NCBI GenBank assembly: GCA_963698885.1
Contig: CAVOSJ010000006.1
Coordinates: forward strand, 325,186 to 389,185
Direction: 5' to 3'
DNA length: 64,000 nt
From: Nitrospirota bacterium
GTDB taxonomy: Bacteria; Nitrospirota; JACRHJ01
Position numbers and translations under genes: made by a program. Under the pieces are notes generated by a model, which was given only the letters and a program-made list of their open reading frames with translations, was not told where the DNA came from and did not search any database. Position 1 is the stretch's first letter. Every line of letters starts with the position of its first letter. Shown in pieces: positions 3,777 to 57,915 of this stretch.

Positions 3777-4758
3777 ATGAGAAAGCCGGCGGTCGCCGTG
3801 ATAGGCGCGGGATACTGGGGCAAGAACATAATCAGGGCTCTGCACAAGCTTGACGCTCTCTCATGCATCTGCGATTCGAGCGATAAGGCGCTCGAACTCC
3901 AGAGAGAGGCATACGCGGGCGTGCGCACGGAGACGGATTACCAGGCGGTCCTGGATGACGCCACGATAACCGCCGTAGCCATAGCATCACCCGCCGCAAG
4001 ACACGCGGATATGATACGGCAGGCCCTGGAGGCGGGCAAGGACGTTTATGTGGAAAAGCCTCTCTGCCTTTCCGAATCAGAAGGCGCGTCTTTGGTGGCG
4101 TTGGCGGCCAGCCTGGGGAGGGTGCTGATGGTGGGGCATCTCCTGCATTACCACGACGCGGTGGTGAAGTTAAAAGAGATGATAAGCCAGGGGGAGATGG
4201 GGAAGATCCATTATATATACTCGAACCGGCTGAACCTGGGCAAGTTCAGGAGCGAGGAGAACGCGCTATGGAGCTTCGCGCCGCACGATGTCTCCGTGAT
4301 ATTGGGGTTAGCGGGAGAGATGCCTGAAACCGTATTCTGCAACGGCGGGGCCTTCCTGCAGGAAGGGGTCCACGACAGCACCTGCGCCCTGTTGAGCTTT
4401 CCCTCCGGGATGAGGGCTCACATATTCACAAGCTGGCTGAACCCGTTTAAAGAGCAGAAACTGGTGGTTGTGGGGAGCCGGAAGATGGCCGTTTTCGACG
4501 ACGTGCAGGCCCCGGAGCGGAAACTTCTGATTTATCCGCACGTCATCAACTGGAAGGGGAACTTCCCCGTGCCGGAGAAGAAGGAACCGGAAGCCGTGGG
4601 ACTTCAGGGCTCGGAGCCTCTTTTAAACGAGATGTCCCACTTCCTTGACGTGCGTGACGGAACGGAAAGTACCCGTGACCGACGGCGCGGAGGGTTTAAG
4701 GGTCCTGAAGGTGCTCCAGGCGTGCCAGAAGTCGCTCGATACCGGGACGAAGGTATCG
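3777..4758 (+). CDS. Gfo/Idh/MocA-family NAD-dependent oxidoreductase (WbpB-like); frame switches from frame 3 to frame 1 near 4650-4670 and no stop codon precedes the next gene
   Basis: N-terminal [11 protein letters not shown] Rossmann motif; C-terminal ...[25 protein letters not shown] continues in the frame of ORF 4645..5364. Confidence 0.7.
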
Positions 4759-5364
4759 ATGCCCGAAAAAAAGGAAACCTTCTTCGCCCATCCGACCGCA
4801 GTCGTCGACCAGCCCGCGGATATCGGCGAGGGGACGTCCATCTGGCACTTCACGCACGTGATGAAGGACTGCAGGATCGGCCGCTCATGCAACATCGGCC
4901 AGAACGTGGTCATATCGCCGGGCGTGAAGGTCGGGGATAAGGTGAAGATACAGAATAACGTCTCGGTCTACACCGGCGTGGTGCTGGAAGACGGCGTCTT
5001 CTGCGGCCCTTCCATGGTGTTCACGAACGTGATGAACCCGAGAAGCTACGTATCCCGGCGTGACGAATATAAAGAGACGCTGGTAAAGGAAGGCGCGACC
5101 CTGGGCGCGAACTGCACCGTGGTCTGCGGGCATACCATAGGGAGGTTCGCATTCGTCGGAGCGGGCGCGGTGGTCACGAAGGACGTGCCGGACTACGCCC
5201 TGGTGGTCGGGAATCCGGGCCGGATAATCGGGTACATGTGCGAGTGCGGCGCCAGGCTCTCTTTTAATGGAGAAGAAGCGGATTGCCCGGCCTGCGGCGC
5301 GTCGTATGAAAAGAGAAGCGGAAGAGTAGAGAGGAGGCAAAAAATTGAAAGTACCGTTGCTTGA
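4759..5364 (+). CDS. hexapeptide-repeat N-acetyltransferase (WbpD-like)
   Basis: ATG at 4759 gives [18 protein letters not shown]...; left-handed beta-helix hexapeptide repeats ([44 protein letters not shown]). Confidence 0.75.
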
Positions 5365-11447: not shown

Positions 11448-11464
11448 AGAAAACCTCTAAAGTC

Positions 11465-11569
11465 GTTACTTTCTTTTCGGGTGAAAAGAAAGTAACACAA
11501 AGAAAAGCCGGGGTTTAAACCCCCCGCTTTCTTTTGTGTTACTTTTCTTTCCCGTGAAAGAAAAGTAAC
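11465..11569. repeat. mosaic palindromic intergenic repeat, copy 1 (R hairpin - GC-centred hairpin linker - R hairpin)
   Basis: GTTACTTTCTTTTC-GGGT-GAAAAGAAAGTAAC ... AAAGAAAAGCCGGGGTTTAAACCCCCCGCTTTCTTT ... GTTACTTTTCTTTC-CCGT-GAAAGAAAAGTAAC. Confidence 0.9.
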
Positions 11570-11574
11570 GGTTT

Positions 11575-11901
11575 TTATTCAAAAGAGCAGATATATTCCG
11601 TCACGCCCCCGTCCACGGCTATCTCGAAAAACGAGTCGCCGGGCACGTCGAAAAAAGTCCCCTCTTTATAAGCCGTCCAGGTCTGCTCGCCTTTCTGCTT
11701 CACGCGGCAGGAGCCTGCGATAATCTCCATCTTCTCCGGCGCGCCCGTGTTGAACTTGAACTCGCCCGGATATATAAGACCAAGGGTCTTTTTCGTCCCG
11801 TCCTTGAAAAGCACGGTGTGGCTGACCACCTTCCCGTCGAAATAAACGTTGGCCTTGCATACAACACTCACGTCGTCGAACTGCTTCGGCTGTTCCGGCA
11901 T
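11575..11901 (-). CDS. ppnP: pyrimidine/purine nucleoside phosphorylase PpnP (cupin-like, YaiE family)
   Basis: NVYFDGKVVS..., PGEFKFNTGAPEKMEIIAG..., ...TEYICSF align block-for-block with E. coli PpnP as I recall it; start set at internal ATG 11901. Confidence 0.8.
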   Translation of the reverse strand: MPEQPKQFDDVSVVCKANVYFDGKVVSHTVLFKDGTKKTLGLIYPGEFKFNTGAPEKMEIIAGSCRVKQKGEQTWTAYKEGTFFDVPGDSFFEIAVDGGVTEYICSFE

Positions 11902-16457: not shown

Positions 16458-16467
16458 AATAACATTC

Positions 16468-16562
16468 GTTACTTTTCTTTCGAGAAAGAAAAGTAACCAA
16501 AAGAAAGCTGGACTTAAAACCGGTTTTCTTTGGTTACTTTCTTTTTTCCAAAAGAAAGTAAC
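16468..16562. repeat. mosaic palindromic intergenic repeat, copy 2
   Basis: GTTACTTTTCTTTC-GA-GAAAGAAAAGTAAC ... GTTACTTTCTTTTTTCCAAAAGAAAGTAAC. Confidence 0.9.
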
Positions 16563-16584
16563 AAAGGGTTTTCAGGAGATATAG

Positions 16585-22431: not shown

Positions 22432-22528
22432 CTTTACTTTCTTTTCGAGAAAAGAAAGTAACAAAGAAAAGCTGGACTGAAAGTCTCGCTTTCTTTTGCT
22501 ACTTTTCTTTCACGGGAAAGAAAAGTAG
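22432..22528. repeat. mosaic palindromic intergenic repeat, copy 5
   Basis: CTTTACTTTCTTTTC-GA-GAAAAGAAAGTAAC ... GCTACTTTTCTTTC-ACGG-GAAAGAAAAGTAG. Confidence 0.9.
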
Positions 22529-28119: not shown

Positions 28120-28491
28120 TCAGTACCCTTCGGATAACTCGAAGGCGTCCCTGACCACCTTTACCTTCAGACCCTCGCCGGGCAGGGAAAATATGCTTAC
28201 CACGTCGAACCGGCAGGGTGAATTGTATTTCTTCGTGCGGGTAAGGTACATCATGGCGGCGCGCGTAAGCTGCCTCTGTTTCCTTGCGTCCACCGCCAGC
28301 TCCGGCTCTCCGAACCTCTTGTCCCGGCGGGACTTCACTTCCACGAAGACTATAGTGTCCCCGTCCCTCGCGACAATGTCCAGCTCGCCCATCTTCGTCC
28401 GGTAGTTCCGCTCCAGGATTTTGTAGCCTAGCTTTTTGAGGTGCTTCTCCGCCGCATCCTCGCCGCTTGCCCCAAACTCCTTAGCGTCCAT
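28120..28491 (-). CDS. yraN: YraN-family endonuclease (UPF0102)
   Basis: 123 aa; GE(L)DIVA....VFVEVKSR pattern typical of the YraN family. Confidence 0.8.
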   Translation of the reverse strand: MDAKEFGASGEDAAEKHLKKLGYKILERNYRTKMGELDIVARDGDTIVFVEVKSRRDKRFGEPELAVDARKQRQLTRAAMMYLTRTKKYNSPCRFDVVSIFSLPGEGLKVKVVRDAFELSEGY

Positions 28492-28567
28492 AGGCCCCCG
28501 TTGCCCACATTATCCTAAATAACGCGGTAAGTTGTCAAGGAATTTGGGGGCCGATACACCGGGCGGA

Positions 28568-28664
28568 GGAGGCATTCCTTCCAGAACCTCATTATTCGCA
28601 ACCGCGCGTAAGTCGCTAATCTCTGTTTTACGCTCAACGATGAGCTTCTTCCAGGAACGCCTCC
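28568..28664 (-). repeat. structured ~95-bp element R1 (tandem duplicate of R2), closed by an 11-bp terminal stem
   Basis: GGAGGCATTCC...GGAACGCCTCC; near-identical partner at 28804-28896; the terminal stem is fully paired (with one G.U) only on the minus-strand transcript. Confidence 0.7.
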
Positions 28665-28681
28665 TCCGCCCGGTGAACCAG

Positions 28682-28790
28682 TTTGGGGAGGGAGTATTCT
28701 CGGAGAAAAATTATCGTTGAACGTAAAATAGAACGATTGCTGATGATGCGTTATTGTGAATAATAATTTTTCGGAGAGAATACTCCCTCC
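28682..28790. repeat. long imperfect inverted repeat between R1 and R2
   Basis: GGGAGGGAGTATTCTCGGAGAAAAATTAT ... ATAATTTTTCGGAGAGAATACTCCCTCCC. Confidence 0.7.
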
Positions 28791-28803
28791 CAATAAGGGG
28801 CTC

Positions 28804-28896
28804 GGAGGCATTCCTTCCAGAACCTCATTATTCGCAACCGCTCGTCAGCCGTTAATTTATTTTACGCTCAACGATGACCTCTTCAGGAACGCCTCC
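28804..28896 (-). repeat. structured ~95-bp element R2 (tandem duplicate of R1), immediately 3' of the UDG gene
   Basis: GGAGGCATTCCTTCCAGAACCTCATTATTCGCAACCGC...TTTTACGCTCAACGATGA...CAGGAACGCCTCC. Confidence 0.7.
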
Positions 28897-28903
28897 TCAG
28901 TAA

Positions 28904-29513
28904 TTAGAGCAGCGGCTTTACATGCTTCGCGATTAACGCGATTGCCTTCTCCAGCAACTTTTTATTATCCCCCATATACTGCCACGTGCTCCGGCCGGAC
29001 GGGTGCGGGAGCGCGATTACCAGCGTCTCGAAGCTGTGATACCTGCGCGGGACGGCCCTGCCCACGATGTCCGTAAGCTTCGCCGGGCCGAGCAGGCGCT
29101 CTATCGCGAGCTTCCCGATTGCCAGAATGACCTTCGGCTGGACGATGCGGAGTTCTTTTACAAGATACGCCGCGCAGTTATGTATTTCGATATCCCCCGG
29201 CGTCTCGCGGCGGCCGTTTTTGTCCGGGCCGGGATAGCACTTGGTTATGGCGGTCATGTAAGCATTCGCGCGGAAGGATTCTTCGTCGATGCCAGCACGG
29301 GCGAGCCATGAAAATAATGTCTGTCCCAGCCGTCCCGGCGAACGGCTTCCCTTCCCGGCACTCGACAAGCCCCGGCGACTGCCCGACGCTCATCACCTTC
29401 GCGCCGTATTTCCCGGATACGATCGGGTACGCGGGCGGCGGGATGTTGCACATCGTGCACGGGCGGATAAGCGAGATGAGGCGGGAGAATTCGGATTCGC
29501 GGCTCTCAAGCAT
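28904..29513 (-). CDS. uracil-DNA glycosylase, family 4; one apparent frameshift near 29300-29370
   Basis: ORF 29178..29513 carries the family-4 motif (GQSPGLVE...GKPFAGTAG) and ORF 28904..29368 the C-terminal half (AITKCYPG..., LPHPSGRS). Confidence 0.8.
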
Positions 29514-30469: not shown

Positions 30470-30644
30470 GTCAGCCCGTTTTGACCTCTGAACGTCCGCT
30501 ATTTAAATTTAACAGGTTTTTTCGGAATACGCATGGGCGGGGATGTTGCATAACGCGCGCGGGCGTATGAGAAAGAGAGGGGCGGTCAGATGCTTTGGTG
30601 CGGGTTTTTATTCCCGATTCTGAAACCGGCGTTAATGATGAGCT

Positions 30645-31134
30645 TTATTTGTCAGTAGCAGCTTCAAGTTGGTTTATTAAAAGTTCCCAATTATTACGAC
30701 TCATTTCATCTTCATGCATTTTTTGTAAAATTATCTCACGTCCGAATTCAAATTTTTCGCCTACGTCATTTTTTACGTAGTTTTGATTTGCTGCCGCAGC
30801 ATCTAATAGTTTAAAATCCATTTCAATTTCTTCAGGCTTCCGGAAGTTATTTTTTTTAACATGGATTAATAACTTATGAAATGCAGTTGTTGTAAATTTT
30901 TTCTTGCTGTCCCAGGATGTTAATAAAGAGATACCGAGTTTCATAAAAATAATCATCCATTAAAACTATCTCCTGTGTAAGAGCATCGAAATCAGCTCTT
31001 TTCATTTTTTTTCCAGTACGGGTATTATAGCTGTTAATTGCATCTTTAAAGTCATTAATATCATGTTCATTCAATTTATCCACCCGTGTCTTTGAGAATA
31101 CTTTAGATAATTTATCCATTTCTTCTGTATTCAA
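30645..31134 (-). CDS. hypothetical protein encoded in the low-GC island (about 163 aa); frame change at a homopolymer near 30895-30920
   Basis: ORFs 30874..31134 and 30645..30956 overlap in different frames across an A/T homopolymer; no family recognised. Confidence 0.5.
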
Positions 31135-31225
31135 CTTAGGATAATCGCAGAATCTTCTTTTGAAGAGGAATTCACAGGAGAGGAACTTTTATCGGAAAAA
31201 ATATAATAAGGCCAAACAACCCCTT

Positions 31226-31378
31226 TTAAAGTGGAAACAACCTCACCCAAAAAAACCATTTTACGAAGCCATTATCTCTTGCATATTGCCAATTAAATCG
31301 AGGTACAAACAGGGAGCAAGCGGCTATATAGAAAAAGAAAATAACGACAATTAATTTTCCGATTGGGTTGTTTGGCAT
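31226..31378 (-). CDS. candidate small hydrophobic peptide (50 aa: MPNNPIGKLIVVIFFFYIAACSLFVPRFNWQYARDNGFVKWFFWVRLFPL)
   Basis: below the ORF-track length cutoff; one predicted TM helix; start codon lies inside the right arm of a perfect 12-bp inverted repeat (31365-31376) whose partner (31212-31223) follows the stop. Confidence 0.25.
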   Translation of the reverse strand: MPNNPIGKLIVVIFFFYIAACSLFVPRFNWQYARDNGFVKWFFWVRLFPL

Positions 31379-31469
31379 AAGTCAAAACCTGTTTTATATT
31401 TGCTAACCCGCTAATGCCAAATATACCACTTCTTAAAAAAATGAAATTGGAGACAGGAATTCGGAACAG

Positions 31470-31800
31470 GTCCCTTATCTTTTCCGTTCTTAATAACCCC
31501 TCTTGCTTAATTGGGCTAAGCCATCATCGGTTCACATTTATTCAAAAAAAATAAAAAAATCGACAAATTTTTTACGGTATCGAATTCATGACATCTCCAC
31601 GCTCGGCACAATGCATTTTAGGGGGTCAGGGGCGGGTTTTTGAGACGTGAGTTTTTGGGGAAATGCAGAGATTTTCCCAGATTTTAAATAGGGTTACGCC
31701 ACTATACTGCGGCAATTCCGAAATCGGGTTTTGCATTTCGCAAGTCATTGAAAAGTAAGGAATATTTTTAGCGAAAAAATGCGAAAAAACGCCGGGATTT
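31470..31800 (-). repeat. ~300 bp non-coding module A, homologous to 49141-49435 (opposite strand)
   Basis: by-eye alignment of A against the reverse complement of B: shared blocks CGGTATCGAATTCATG, GGGGGTCAGGG, CCGATGATGGCTT(A/G)GCC, ATAAATGTG, CATTGAAAA(G/T)TAA(G/A)G(A/G); roughly 70 percent identity. Confidence 0.75.
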
Positions 31801-31837
31801 CCAATTTTTGGGGAAATTCTCGCCAAATTATTAACGC

Positions 31838-32813
31838 TCAGAATGACAGGTTCACGGCCTCCCGCACTTCCTCCATCGTCTCCCCCGCGACCTTGCGGGC
31901 GGTCTCTGCCCCGGCCTTCAGCATCTCACGCGTCTCGTCCTCACGGCCTGTCAGCGCGGCCCTTTTCTCCCGGAATGGCGCAAGGTAAGTGCTTAATATT
32001 TCGGCTAAATAGCTCTTGTGCTTCACGCAGCCAAGCCTTCCGGCCCGGCAGCCCTCATCGGCTAAAGGCGCGTCATTTGGCCCGAACGCCTTGTGGTAGT
32101 CCTGGACGGAGCAGATGTCCGGGTCGCCCGGGTCGGTCGCGTGGATTTTCTTAGGGTCCGTAATGAGTTGCATCACTTTCGGCTTCAATCTCTTCCGGCG
32201 GCTCGTCCAAAAAAATGGCGTTATTCAAGGACTTGGACATCTTCCGGCCGTCCGTGCCCGGCAGCTTCGGGGTCTGTGTCAGGAGCGCCTTCGGCTCCGG
32301 AAAAACCTGTTTATACCGATGGTTAAACGCCCTCGCGATCTCTCTGGCAAGCTCGATATGCGGGACCTGGTCAACCCCAACCGGCACCGCGCCCGCCTTG
32401 TATAACATTATGTCCGCCGCCTGAAGCACCGGGTATCCCATCAGGCCGTAGTTCACGCCATGTAAGTGCATGTCTTCAATCATGTTTTTTAGCGTCGGGT
32501 CCCGCTCCAGCCAGGGCATGGGGGTAATCATCCCGAAAAGGAGATAAAGCTCCGCATGCTCCTTCACATCGGACTGGACGAATACCGTCGAGCGGGAGAA
32601 ATCGATACCCAGCGCCCGCCAATCCAAAGCCATTTCCATAATGTTTTTAGGAAGTTCGGAGGTATCGGCGTAGGCGGTGGTCAGGGCGTGCCAGTCGGCG
32701 GCCATGAAAAAACATTCATACTCTTCCTGCAACGATAGCCAGTTGCCGAGCGCGCCGACTAAGTGCCCGATATGCAGTCTGCCGGTAGGCCGCATCCCGG
32801 ATAAGAGCCTCAT
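31838..32813 (-). CDS. trpS: tryptophan--tRNA ligase; one apparent frameshift near 32160-32190
   Basis: ORF 32151..32813 has class-I aaRS HIGH (TGRLHIGH) and KMSKS motifs; the C-terminal anticodon-binding part continues in ORF 31838..32188. Confidence 0.9.
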
Positions 32814-57675: not shown

Positions 57676-57915
57676 CGCAAAAATTTAATATTCTTCCGAA
57701 GCCGGACCGCCCTACAGTCTTTTCGCAGGGGCCAGGGGTCCCGGCCGACAGGGTCGCATCCGAAAGGGTGCGGTCTCCCATAGAAGCCGGTTACCGGTTT
57801 TGGAAAGGAGGGCAAGCTCGCGGCAAGGCACCTCTTTATTCAAAGAAGGCGCCTTTTTTTATTTCGAACTGTTTTCATTATTTTTTAGCAGGCAATCCGA
57901 AAGGGGAACTCCGTT

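What the first reader, a model, noticed from the sequence alone, without database searches (positions are those of the whole stretch)
28568..28896. Tandemly duplicated ~95-nt structured element between UDG and yraN, with strand-specific base pairing
Two near-identical ~95-bp units (28568-28664 and 28804-28896) flank a long inverted repeat (28682-28790). Each unit is closed by an 11-bp terminal stem (GGAGGCATTCC ... GGAACGCCTCC). On the plus-strand RNA this stem has an A-C mismatch; on the minus-strand RNA the same position is a G.U wobble, and both copies carry it. This strand asymmetry suggests selection at the RNA level on the minus strand, the strand of both flanking genes. It could be a tandem riboswitch-like leader for yraN, a pair of sRNAs, or a structured terminator array for the UDG gene.
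Basis: seen in the sequence. Interest (0 to 1): 0.55.

Follow-up and report, generated by a model that had tools for sequence, protein, structure and literature searches.

The report
Palindromic repeat cluster in Nitrospirota spacer
The spacer between the UDG and yraN genes holds three copies of a roughly 105-base hairpin-forming repeat that is scattered through the genomes of related uncultivated Nitrospirota, so it is an undescribed family of a known kind of small bacterial repeat and not a riboswitch or small-RNA gene for yraN.

Summary
The spacer holds three copies, not two. A (28564-28668) and C (28800-28900) belong to one subfamily. The "long inverted repeat" B (28686-28791) is a second subfamily in the opposite orientation.

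About 27 further copies lie next to unrelated housekeeping genes in Nitrospirota MAGs and peat or wetland metagenomes. Orthologous UDG-yraN spacers carry zero, one and a half, two and a half, or three copies. In one lineage the element sits in frame inside a glycosyltransferase gene.

All copies fold into a rod-like hairpin: 97% of stem positions are paired and 13 pairs show changes on both sides. They share an asymmetric core and a GGA/GGA internal loop. 26 of 27 copies fold better on one strand. That strand is the sense strand of flanking genes at about 12-14 of 15-17 independent sites. Orthologous copies are much better conserved than four-fold degenerate sites (92% against 42%).

There is no match in Rfam, plasmids, phages or E. 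coli genomes. The conserved yraN promoter lies downstream of the array.

Verdict: a new family of ERIC/RPE-like palindromic repeats, probably acting as a co-transcribed RNA hairpin. How it moves is unknown.

The parts
28564..28668 (-). Copy A, subfamily 1 (about 105 nt). In this copy the closing stem extends outward to 28557-28675.
   Evidence: Covariance-model match of 114 bits and 111 bits. The minus strand folds at -71.9 kcal/mol and the plus strand at -64. Orthologs L027 and L014 retain only its 5' arm.
28686..28791 (+). Copy B, subfamily 2 (106 nt).
   Evidence: Covariance-model match of 123 bits on the plus strand. It aligns with A and C when reverse-complemented, and the stem changes are compensated. 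Orthologous copies are present in L014, L023/L027 and L035.
28800..28900 (-). Copy C, subfamily 1 (101 nt, with two small internal deletions). It starts 3 nt after the UDG stop codon.
   Evidence: Covariance-model match of 84 bits. It is present in L023/L027 and absent from the orthologous site in L014.
28626..28641 (-). Conserved core motif 1 of copy A. On the functional strand it reads AUCGUUGARCGUAAAA. The same motif occurs at 28713-28728 in B and 28860-28875 in C.
   Evidence: Three exact matches in the window, all in this spacer. The motif is invariant in all subfamily-1 and subfamily-2 copies.
28591..28601 (-). Conserved core motif 2 of copy A. On the functional strand it reads UUGYGAAUAAU. 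Its Y covaries with the R of motif 1.
   Evidence: The pair at alignment columns 38/75 is A-U in 19 copies, G-C in 6 and unpaired in 2.
28509..28538 (-). Sigma-70-like promoter of yraN (TTGACA, 18 nt, GATAAT). It lies downstream of the array and is not part of the repeat.
   Evidence: 11 of 12 consensus matches. It is conserved in orthologous loci both with and without the repeats.
28120..28491 (-). yraN (UPF0102) gene, downstream neighbour of the array.
   Evidence: Pfam PF02021, E = 5e-31.
28904..29513 (-). UDG-superfamily gene, upstream neighbour of the array. In this window it is split by a frameshift into ORFs 29178-29513 and 28904-29368.
   Evidence: Pfam PF03167. Comparison with the intact 201-aa ortholog in L014.

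Best explanation
The spacer holds a cluster of three members of a previously undescribed family of about 105-bp imperfect-palindrome interspersed repeats. The family is confined, as far as the searches reached, to a clade of uncultivated Nitrospirota. It belongs to the same general kind as ERIC, RPE, Correia and other bacterial MITE-like elements.

**Shown**
- The family has two main subfamilies plus one divergent variant.
- Copies are dispersed next to unrelated genes.
- Orthologous sites differ in whether a copy is present.
- One lineage carries an in-frame insertion in a gene.
- All copies keep a rod-like hairpin. It has an outer stem, a 3x3 GGA/GGA internal loop, a second stem, a conserved asymmetric core and a variable tip. 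Pairing is kept through compensatory changes.
- Stems and core are conserved far above neutral sites.
- One strand folds better, and it is usually the sense strand of the neighbouring genes.

**Inferred**
- The element spread as a non-autonomous mobile sequence, by an enzyme not identified here.
- It is co-transcribed with its neighbours.
- It is retained because the sense-strand RNA hairpin does something in the mRNA. The most likely role is to set 3'-end stability or processing between cistrons, as shown for ERIC and REP elements.
- At this locus the array would form the 3' untranslated end of the UDG transcript, upstream of yraN's own promoter.
For: **Family and dispersal.** A pattern scan of GTDB genomes gave 12 loci in three Nitrospirota MAGs. 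A metagenome scan added more. Covariance-model searches confirm 27 full copies plus a truncated one.

**Structure.** 97.2% of 727 stem cells are paired. 13 of 27 pairs show changes on both sides. Slid-partner controls give only 41-60% pairing.

**Mobility.** Copy C is absent from the orthologous site in L014. Copy A is truncated in L014 and L027. No copies occur in L040, L042 or L043. The GT2 gene carries two independent in-frame insertions, in opposite orientations and at different positions. Close homologs of 331-336 aa lack them.

**Constraint.** The element inside GT2 is 92% identical between L005 and L012, against 42% at four-fold degenerate sites. Copy B is 90% identical against 74-80% at such sites, and its changes are concentrated in the apical loop.

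**Strand.** 26 of 27 copies are more stable on one strand. In stems G.U outnumbers A.C by 88 to 8. About 12-14 of 15-17 independent sites are in the sense orientation.

**Not gene-specific.** The neighbours include dxs, pepA, gatB, ffh, brkB, RACo/MarR, SMC-like and GT2 genes.

**Not a described family.** There is no Rfam match. There is no match in plasmids, phages or E. coli genomes.

**The known class.** Bacterial MITE-like repeats, ERIC's orientation-dependent effect on mRNA decay, and in-frame RPE insertions are described in PMC2229807.
Against: - No transcript data exist, so co-transcription and any RNA-level effect are inferred.
- No transposase or parent IS was found. There is no consistent target-site duplication. 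One empty/filled comparison is merely compatible with a duplicated TTAY.
- The strand asymmetry rests mainly on four inherited positions. Two are invariant core G.U pairs. Two lie at a CpG-like GCGUUC site, which could be a deamination hot spot. Sporadic G.U (12 cells) and A.C (8 cells) are nearly balanced.
- Three sites carry well-conserved antisense copies, including B here.
- The orientation bias is modest (binomial p about 0.02-0.04, my calculation from the tally). It could instead reflect a replication-strand bias.
- Copy number is low. At least 8 exact pattern matches were found in the richest MAG, and only this one locus in the 64-kb window.
Confidence: 0.6

Rival explanations
1. The element works as single-stranded DNA. 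It is a REP/REPIN-like or IS200/IS605-end-like hairpin, recognised on one DNA strand by a HUH/Y1 transposase. Hairpin conservation, G.T wobble pairs and orientation bias would then reflect the needs of that enzyme and the direction of replication, not any RNA function.
For: - The structure is strand-specific and tolerates wobble pairs.
- No clear target-site duplication is seen, as expected for Y1 transposition.
- The cluster has alternating orientation, like a BIME.
- Genes mostly follow the direction of replication. A replication-strand bias would therefore look like a sense-strand bias (established knowledge of IS200/IS605 and REP/RAYT biology).
Against: - At 105 nt with a long asymmetric core, the element is about three times the size of a REP.
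- There is no conserved GTAG-like 5' motif.
- No Y1 transposase appears among the neighbours examined.
- Orthologous fixed copies are conserved far above neutral sites. Enzyme recognition of a few active copies does not explain that.
Confidence: 0.17
2. The element is a double-stranded DNA binding platform for a host protein, such as a nucleoid-associated or regulatory protein. The palindromic arms would be paired half-sites and the core a specific recognition sequence.
For: - The core sequences are conserved in both orientations, including the antisense copies.
- Copies lie in intergenic positions.
Against: - The two subfamilies coexist in one genome with arms that are fully changed but still complementary. 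6 of 9 pairs in the second stem changed on both sides. Selection for pairing explains this more simply than two co-evolving proteins.
- Invariant G.U positions and an internal loop have no meaning in duplex DNA.
- A copy sits inside a coding sequence.
Confidence: 0.08
3. This is the first reader's reading: a dedicated cis-regulatory RNA (a tandem riboswitch-like leader) or a pair of small-RNA genes serving yraN or UDG.
For: - The hairpins are stable and strand-asymmetric on the strand of both flanking genes.
- There is no rival annotation in Rfam.
Against: - The array lies upstream of the conserved yraN promoter.
- It is absent from the same spacer in close relatives.
- The same element occurs beside functionally unrelated genes and inside a GT2 ORF.
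- There is no room for separate promoters or terminators at most sites.
- The fold is a plain rod with no multi-helix ligand pocket.
Confidence: 0.04

Closest known systems
ERIC / IRU (enterobacterial repetitive intergenic consensus, 127 bp)
   Same: - It is an imperfect palindrome of similar size.
- Copy number is low.
- It sits in transcribed spacers of operons in either orientation.
- It is present or absent at orthologous sites.
- It is co-transcribed, with an orientation-dependent effect on mRNA decay (PMC2229807).
- From my own knowledge of Wilson and Sharp 2006, which I did not read here, ERIC copies are also unusually well conserved, with compensatory changes.
   Different: - There is no sequence similarity: nothing matched in 5,426 E. 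coli genomes.
- The phylum is different.
- The most conserved part here is an asymmetric inner core, not the termini.
- No TA termini or target duplication could be shown.
- Any RNase E-type effect is untested.
RPE (Rickettsia palindromic elements, 105-146 bp)
   Same: - The length is the same (105 nt, or 35 codons).
- It forms a long stem-loop.
- It occurs both in spacers and fused in frame inside a conserved protein gene whose reading frame stays open (PMC2229807).
   Different: - Only one gene (GT2, two independent events) was seen with an in-frame copy, against 19 in Rickettsia.
- Subfamily 2 has stop codons in all three sense frames.
- The host here is free-living and environmental, not an obligate intracellular bacterium.
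- Sequence homology was not tested.
REP / BIME clusters with RAYT transposases
   Same: - Extragenic hairpins are clustered in alternating orientation in one spacer, as with A, B and C here.
- They lie at the 3' ends of genes.
- The structure is strand-specific.
   Different: - REPs are 20-40 nt with a conserved GTAG-type 5' motif and an associated Y1 transposase gene. Here the unit is 105 nt.
- No such motif is present.
- No such gene was seen in the sequence examined.
Correia / NEMIS elements of Neisseria
   Same: - It is a palindromic repeat of about 100-155 bp.
- It is co-transcribed with neighbouring genes.
- It forms long RNA hairpins.
   Different: - Correia elements have conserved 24-26-bp terminal inverted repeats, a TA duplication, an IHF site and outward promoters (PMC2229807).
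- Here the termini are the most variable part.
- A promoter inside the element is not conserved: the -35 region matches only 1-5 of 6.

Membership tests
Bacterial MITE-like small palindromic repeats (the class reviewed in PMC2229807) | Small (under 200 bp), non-coding, forming a long stem-loop with inverted-repeat arms | tested here: met
   Copies are 101-109 nt. Stems are 97% paired. No reading frame is conserved across copies.
Bacterial MITE-like small palindromic repeats (the class reviewed in PMC2229807) | Multiple dispersed copies per genome at unrelated loci | tested here: met
   One MAG has at least 8 exact pattern matches on 7 contigs, and another has 4. Neighbouring genes are unrelated. 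Within this window all 3 copies lie in one spacer.
Bacterial MITE-like small palindromic repeats (the class reviewed in PMC2229807) | Presence/absence polymorphism at orthologous sites (evidence of insertion) | tested here: met
   The UDG-yraN spacer carries 0 to 3 copies. The GT2 gene occurs with and without the insert.
Bacterial MITE-like small palindromic repeats (the class reviewed in PMC2229807) | Target-site duplication and/or TA at the termini | tested here: inconclusive
   Flanks of about 30 copies show no consistent direct repeat. One empty/filled comparison for copy C is compatible with a duplicated TTAY.
Bacterial MITE-like small palindromic repeats (the class reviewed in PMC2229807) | A cognate transposase or parent IS with matching ends | not testable with these tools
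No transposase appears among the neighbours examined.
ERIC in the strict sense | Sequence homology to the enterobacterial 127-bp consensus | tested here: not met
   Sensitive blastn of the whole array against 5,426 complete E. coli genomes, which carry ERIC, REP and RU-3 copies, gave no match.
REP/BIME with RAYT | A 20-40-nt hairpin with a conserved 5' tetranucleotide, and an associated Y1 transposase | tested here: not met
   The unit is 105 nt and has no conserved flanking tetranucleotide. For the transposase, only local neighbours could be checked.
Riboswitch or cis-regulatory leader | Lies in the 5' untranslated region, between promoter and start codon, of functionally related genes, and is conserved at that position | tested here: not met
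   It lies upstream of the yraN promoter. It is absent in close relatives. Neighbours are unrelated and most copies directly follow a stop codon. There is no Rfam match.
Intrinsic (Rho-independent) terminator | A G+C-rich hairpin followed directly by a U-tract | tested here: not met
   No T-run follows any copy. The scan found no terminator-like site formed by a copy's own closing stem and a following T-run; its one site in the spacer (28799-28785, minus strand) is a 5-bp hairpin spanning the C-B junction. Copies also occur inside an ORF.
Integron attC site | R'' RYYYAAC and R' GTTRRRY boxes, same-orientation arrays separating cassettes, and a nearby integrase | tested here: not met
   Direct reading of the aligned copies shows no GTTRRRY/RYYYAAC ends. 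The copies alternate in orientation with no cassettes between them.
RPE-like behaviour (in-frame residence in protein genes) | A copy fused in frame within a conserved protein gene whose reading frame remains open | tested here: met
   In L005 and L012 the copy is in sense orientation and spans 35 codons. In L021 it is in antisense orientation. All three are read through without a stop codon. Homologs of 331-336 aa lack the insert. This is a shared behaviour, not evidence of homology to RPE.

The most novel reading that the evidence does not exclude
The element is not just a tolerated selfish repeat. It would be a host-retained, about 105-nt structured RNA module. Its features are a GGA/GGA internal loop, two invariant G.U pairs and an A-rich loop in an asymmetric core. 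A Nitrospirota RNA-binding protein or ribonuclease would read this module to set differential stability or processing of operon transcripts. This would be a new RNA family that spreads as a mobile unit and is then kept by purifying selection, even inside a coding sequence.
Probability: 0.2. Interest if true: 0.6.

Novelty: new member of a known kind. Interest (0 to 1): 0.35.

Why it matters
- The result removes a false lead: there is no riboswitch or sRNA pair for yraN.
- It documents a repeat family in a poorly studied, uncultivated group of Nitrospirota.
- The family is unusual in being conserved far above neutral sites at fixed orthologous positions, including inside a protein-coding gene. 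That pattern bears on the long-running question of whether ERIC-like repeats are selfish DNA or functional RNA elements.
- On the practical side, unmasked repeats of this kind can break MAG assemblies and mislead searches for non-coding RNAs.
- The covariance model built here could be used to annotate the family.

Tried and rejected
- **Rfam.** Searched at gathering threshold over the whole window and at E up to 10 over the spacer. Only weak microRNA and snoRNA look-alike hits to long hairpins appeared.
- **Element-borne promoter.** The conserved AATAAT could act as a -10 box, but the -35 region matches only 1-5 of 6 across copies. Rejected as a general feature.
- **Small ORF in the element.** The frame is not conserved between copies that differ by 1 nt in length. 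Subfamily 2 has stops in all sense frames.
- **Intrinsic terminator.** No U-tract follows any copy.
- **Integron attC, retron, CRISPR.** The anatomy does not fit, judged by direct reading.
- **Plasmid, phage or E. coli origin.** No blastn match.
- **Further copies in the window.** An unfiltered covariance-model search found none. The weak hits at 11464-11570 and 16464-16566 belong to a different palindromic family.
- **Exact look-up of the window's YraN.** Not on record.
- **Literature.** Searches for REP or MITE elements in Nitrospirae/Nitrospirota found nothing relevant.
- **Chance pattern hits.** L006, L008, L010, L011, L017 and about ten metagenome contigs did not match the covariance model and were discarded.
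- **Target-site duplication.** No consistent signal.

Full report
**1. The observation**

The 412-nt spacer lies between yraN (28120-28491, minus strand, Pfam UPF0102) and a UDG-superfamily gene (28904-29368, minus strand). The terminal stem carries an A-C mismatch on the plus strand, which is a G.U pair on the minus strand. Each unit and the whole spacer fold far better than shuffled sequence, with z-scores of -3 to -11.5.

Aligning unit A, the reverse complement of the central repeat, and unit C shows that the central repeat is a third copy of the same element in inverted orientation. Two motifs are invariant. On the plus strand of A they read ATTATTCRCAA and TTTTACGYTCAACGAT. The arms differ between copies but stay complementary.

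**2. A dispersed family**

Rfam has nothing here. The only family at gathering score in the window is a Moco riboswitch at 57682-57826. A permissive search of the spacer gives only weak microRNA-like hairpin hits.

A two-motif pattern scan of one genome per GTDB species found 12 loci in three Nitrospirota MAGs, plus four chance hits elsewhere. A metagenome scan added peat and wetland contigs. A covariance model built from 15 copies recovered 27 full copies and one truncated copy. Each scored far higher on one strand, 79-123 bits against 10-44.

There are two subfamilies:
- Subfamily 1 includes A and C and has about 50% G+C.
- Subfamily 2 includes B and has about 40% G+C.

L046 carries a more divergent third variant. 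A and C are 86% identical to each other. Each is closer to a copy elsewhere (91%), so they are not a local duplication. An unfiltered search finds no further copy in the 64-kb window. Blastn finds nothing in plasmids, phages or E. coli genomes.

**3. Anatomy**

On the better-folding strand, which is the minus strand for A and C and the plus strand for B, every copy forms a rod. From the outside in:
- an outer stem of about 12 bp (GGGAGGGAG.. / ..CUCCCUCCC or GGAGGCGUUCC / GGAAUGCCUCC);
- a symmetric 3x3 internal loop, GGA opposite GGA;
- a second stem of about 9 bp;
- the conserved core, AUCGUUGARCGUAAAA paired with UUGYGAAUAAU, which includes two invariant G.U pairs and an R-Y pair that covaries between subfamilies;
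- a variable tip of about 20 nt.

Of 727 stem cells, 97.2% are standard pairs. 13 of 27 pairs show changes on both sides. Sliding the partners drops pairing to 41-60%.

**4. Strand asymmetry**

G.U cells outnumber A.C cells by 88 to 8. 26 of 27 copies are more stable on this strand, by a mean of 8.4 kcal/mol. There is a caveat. 52 of the G.U cells come from the two invariant core pairs. Another 24 come from two adjacent pairs at a CpG-like GCGUUC site, which flips among CG, UG, CA and UA. The remaining sporadic cells are nearly balanced, at 12 G.U to 8 A.C. The asymmetry is therefore a real property of the family, but it is largely inherited. It is not proof of ongoing RNA-level selection.

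**5. Genomic context**

Gene calls scored by codon usage place almost all copies in short spacers between co-directional genes. They often lie 0-15 nt after a stop codon and 20-30 nt before the next start, which leaves no room for their own promoter or terminator.

Grouping orthologous loci gives about 12-14 sense sites and 3 antisense sites. The antisense sites are B at this locus, L015/L026, and L021. The binomial p is about 0.02-0.04 by my calculation.

The neighbours are unrelated housekeeping genes: dxs, an S4-domain gene, pepA, gatB, ffh, brkB, RACo/MarR, an SMC-like gene, a methyltransferase and others. No transposase was seen. No copy is followed by a U-tract.

**6. Evidence of insertion and loss**

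Orthologous UDG-yraN spacers differ in content:

| Locus | Content of the spacer |
|---|---|
| Window | C, B, A |
| L027/L023 | C, B, and only the 5' arm of A (a deletion between two ATCG) |
| L014 | B and the same truncated A, no C |
| L035 | A copy of B next to the yraN promoter |
| L040 | None of the three; a different palindromic repeat occupies the spacer |
| L042/L043 | None; a PAS-histidine-kinase gene occupies the spacer |

All of these loci keep a TTGACA-18-GATAAT promoter just upstream of yraN (28538-28509 in the window). The array therefore lies in the 3' region of UDG and upstream of the yraN promoter, not in a yraN leader.

**7. A copy inside a gene**

In L005 and L012 a subfamily-1 copy lies inside a family-2 glycosyltransferase gene. 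It is read through in frame as 35 codons (...GGVPGRSSSLSVKQKL..RLRIMRFWKECL...). In L021 another copy lies a few codons away in the opposite orientation and is also read through. The closest homologs, 87-89% identical outside the insert and 331-336 aa long, lack it. This is the behaviour described for Rickettsia palindromic elements (PMC2229807). Subfamily 1 has two or three open frames. Subfamily 2 has stops in all three sense frames.

**8. Conservation**

Orthologous copies are as well or better conserved than the flanking coding DNA. They are much better conserved than four-fold degenerate sites:

| Comparison | Element identity | Four-fold degenerate sites |
|---|---|---|
| Element in GT2, L005 vs L012 | 92% | 42% |
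| L003 vs L004 | 93% | 77% |
| Copy B, window vs L014 | 90% | 74-80% |

In copy B, 6 of the 11 differences fall in the 20-nt tip. A decaying selfish insertion does not predict this. It needs host-level selection on stems and core, recurrent gene conversion under a constrained consensus, or site-specific re-insertion.

**9. Interpretation**

The best-supported reading is a new family of ERIC/RPE-like palindromic interspersed repeats. The spread by insertion is shown. The enzyme is unknown, and no consistent target duplication was found.

Four observations favour a role for the sense-strand RNA hairpin within operon transcripts. These are selection for pairing irrespective of arm sequence, the strand asymmetry, the sense-strand bias, and residence only in transcribed positions. 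The most plausible role is in 3'-end protection or processing, by analogy with ERIC and REP. This step is inferred and untested.

A single-strand DNA model of the REP/RAYT type remains a serious rival. A duplex-DNA binding platform is less likely. A dedicated riboswitch or sRNA for yraN is essentially excluded.

**10. Loose ends**

The truncated A is shared by L014 and L027, while C is shared by the window and L027. This is not compatible with a single history unless the deletion recurred or the window's A was restored by conversion. The window genome also carries a second, more abundant palindromic repeat family, so this lineage is rich in such elements.

Noticed in passing
window 28904-29513 (minus strand): The UDG gene is split by a frameshift near residue 60. 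The N-terminal 62 residues are in ORF 29178-29513 and the rest in ORF 28904-29368. The ortholog in L014 is an intact 201-aa protein. This is either a pseudogene or an assembly error.
   Followed up: partly
window 11459-11575 and 16458-16572; motif hits also near 22462, 25137 and 26812: A second, unrelated family of about 115-bp palindromic repeats, with motifs GTTACTTTTCTTTC...GAAAGAAAAGTAAC. It has no Rfam match at gathering score. It also occurs in L016, L040, L042 and L043. In L040 (9860-9960) it fills the UDG-yraN spacer in place of the element studied here.
   Followed up: partly
window 30500-31850: An AT-rich island (30-40% G+C against a window mean of 56%) just downstream of the pirin gene. 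It contains only short AT-rich ORFs and may be foreign DNA.
   Followed up: no
window 57682-57826 (plus strand): A molybdenum-cofactor riboswitch (RF01055, 44 bits against a gathering score of 36). It is the only Rfam family at gathering score in the window.
   Followed up: no
L005 3343-3447, L012 620-724, L021 1593-1697: Copies of the element lie inside a family-2 glycosyltransferase ORF and are read through in frame. There were two independent insertions, in opposite orientations, in the same variable linker after the DDGG motif. Other homologs (P0127, P0128) carry different insertions at that spot.
   Followed up: yes
L042 1972-3123 and L043 2419-3570: In these close relatives a PAS/HisKA sensor-kinase gene sits between UDG and yraN. 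Together with the repeats, this marks the spacer as a hot spot for insertions.
   Followed up: no
L027 about 560-600 and L014 about 4730-4770, compared with window 28557-28675: L014 and L027 share an identical truncation of copy A, a deletion between two ATCG tetranucleotides. The window has the full copy, although the window and L027 are the closer pair and share copy C. Either the deletion recurred or the window's copy was repaired by conversion.
   Followed up: partly
L046 8477-8581 (plus strand): A divergent third variant of the element (82-92 bits) with an altered core, CAUC-UUGACCGUAAGA...UUGCGGAUAAU. It overlaps the 3' end of a SPASM-domain gene in genome GCA_021784575.1. The family is therefore broader than the strict search pattern.
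   Followed up: partly
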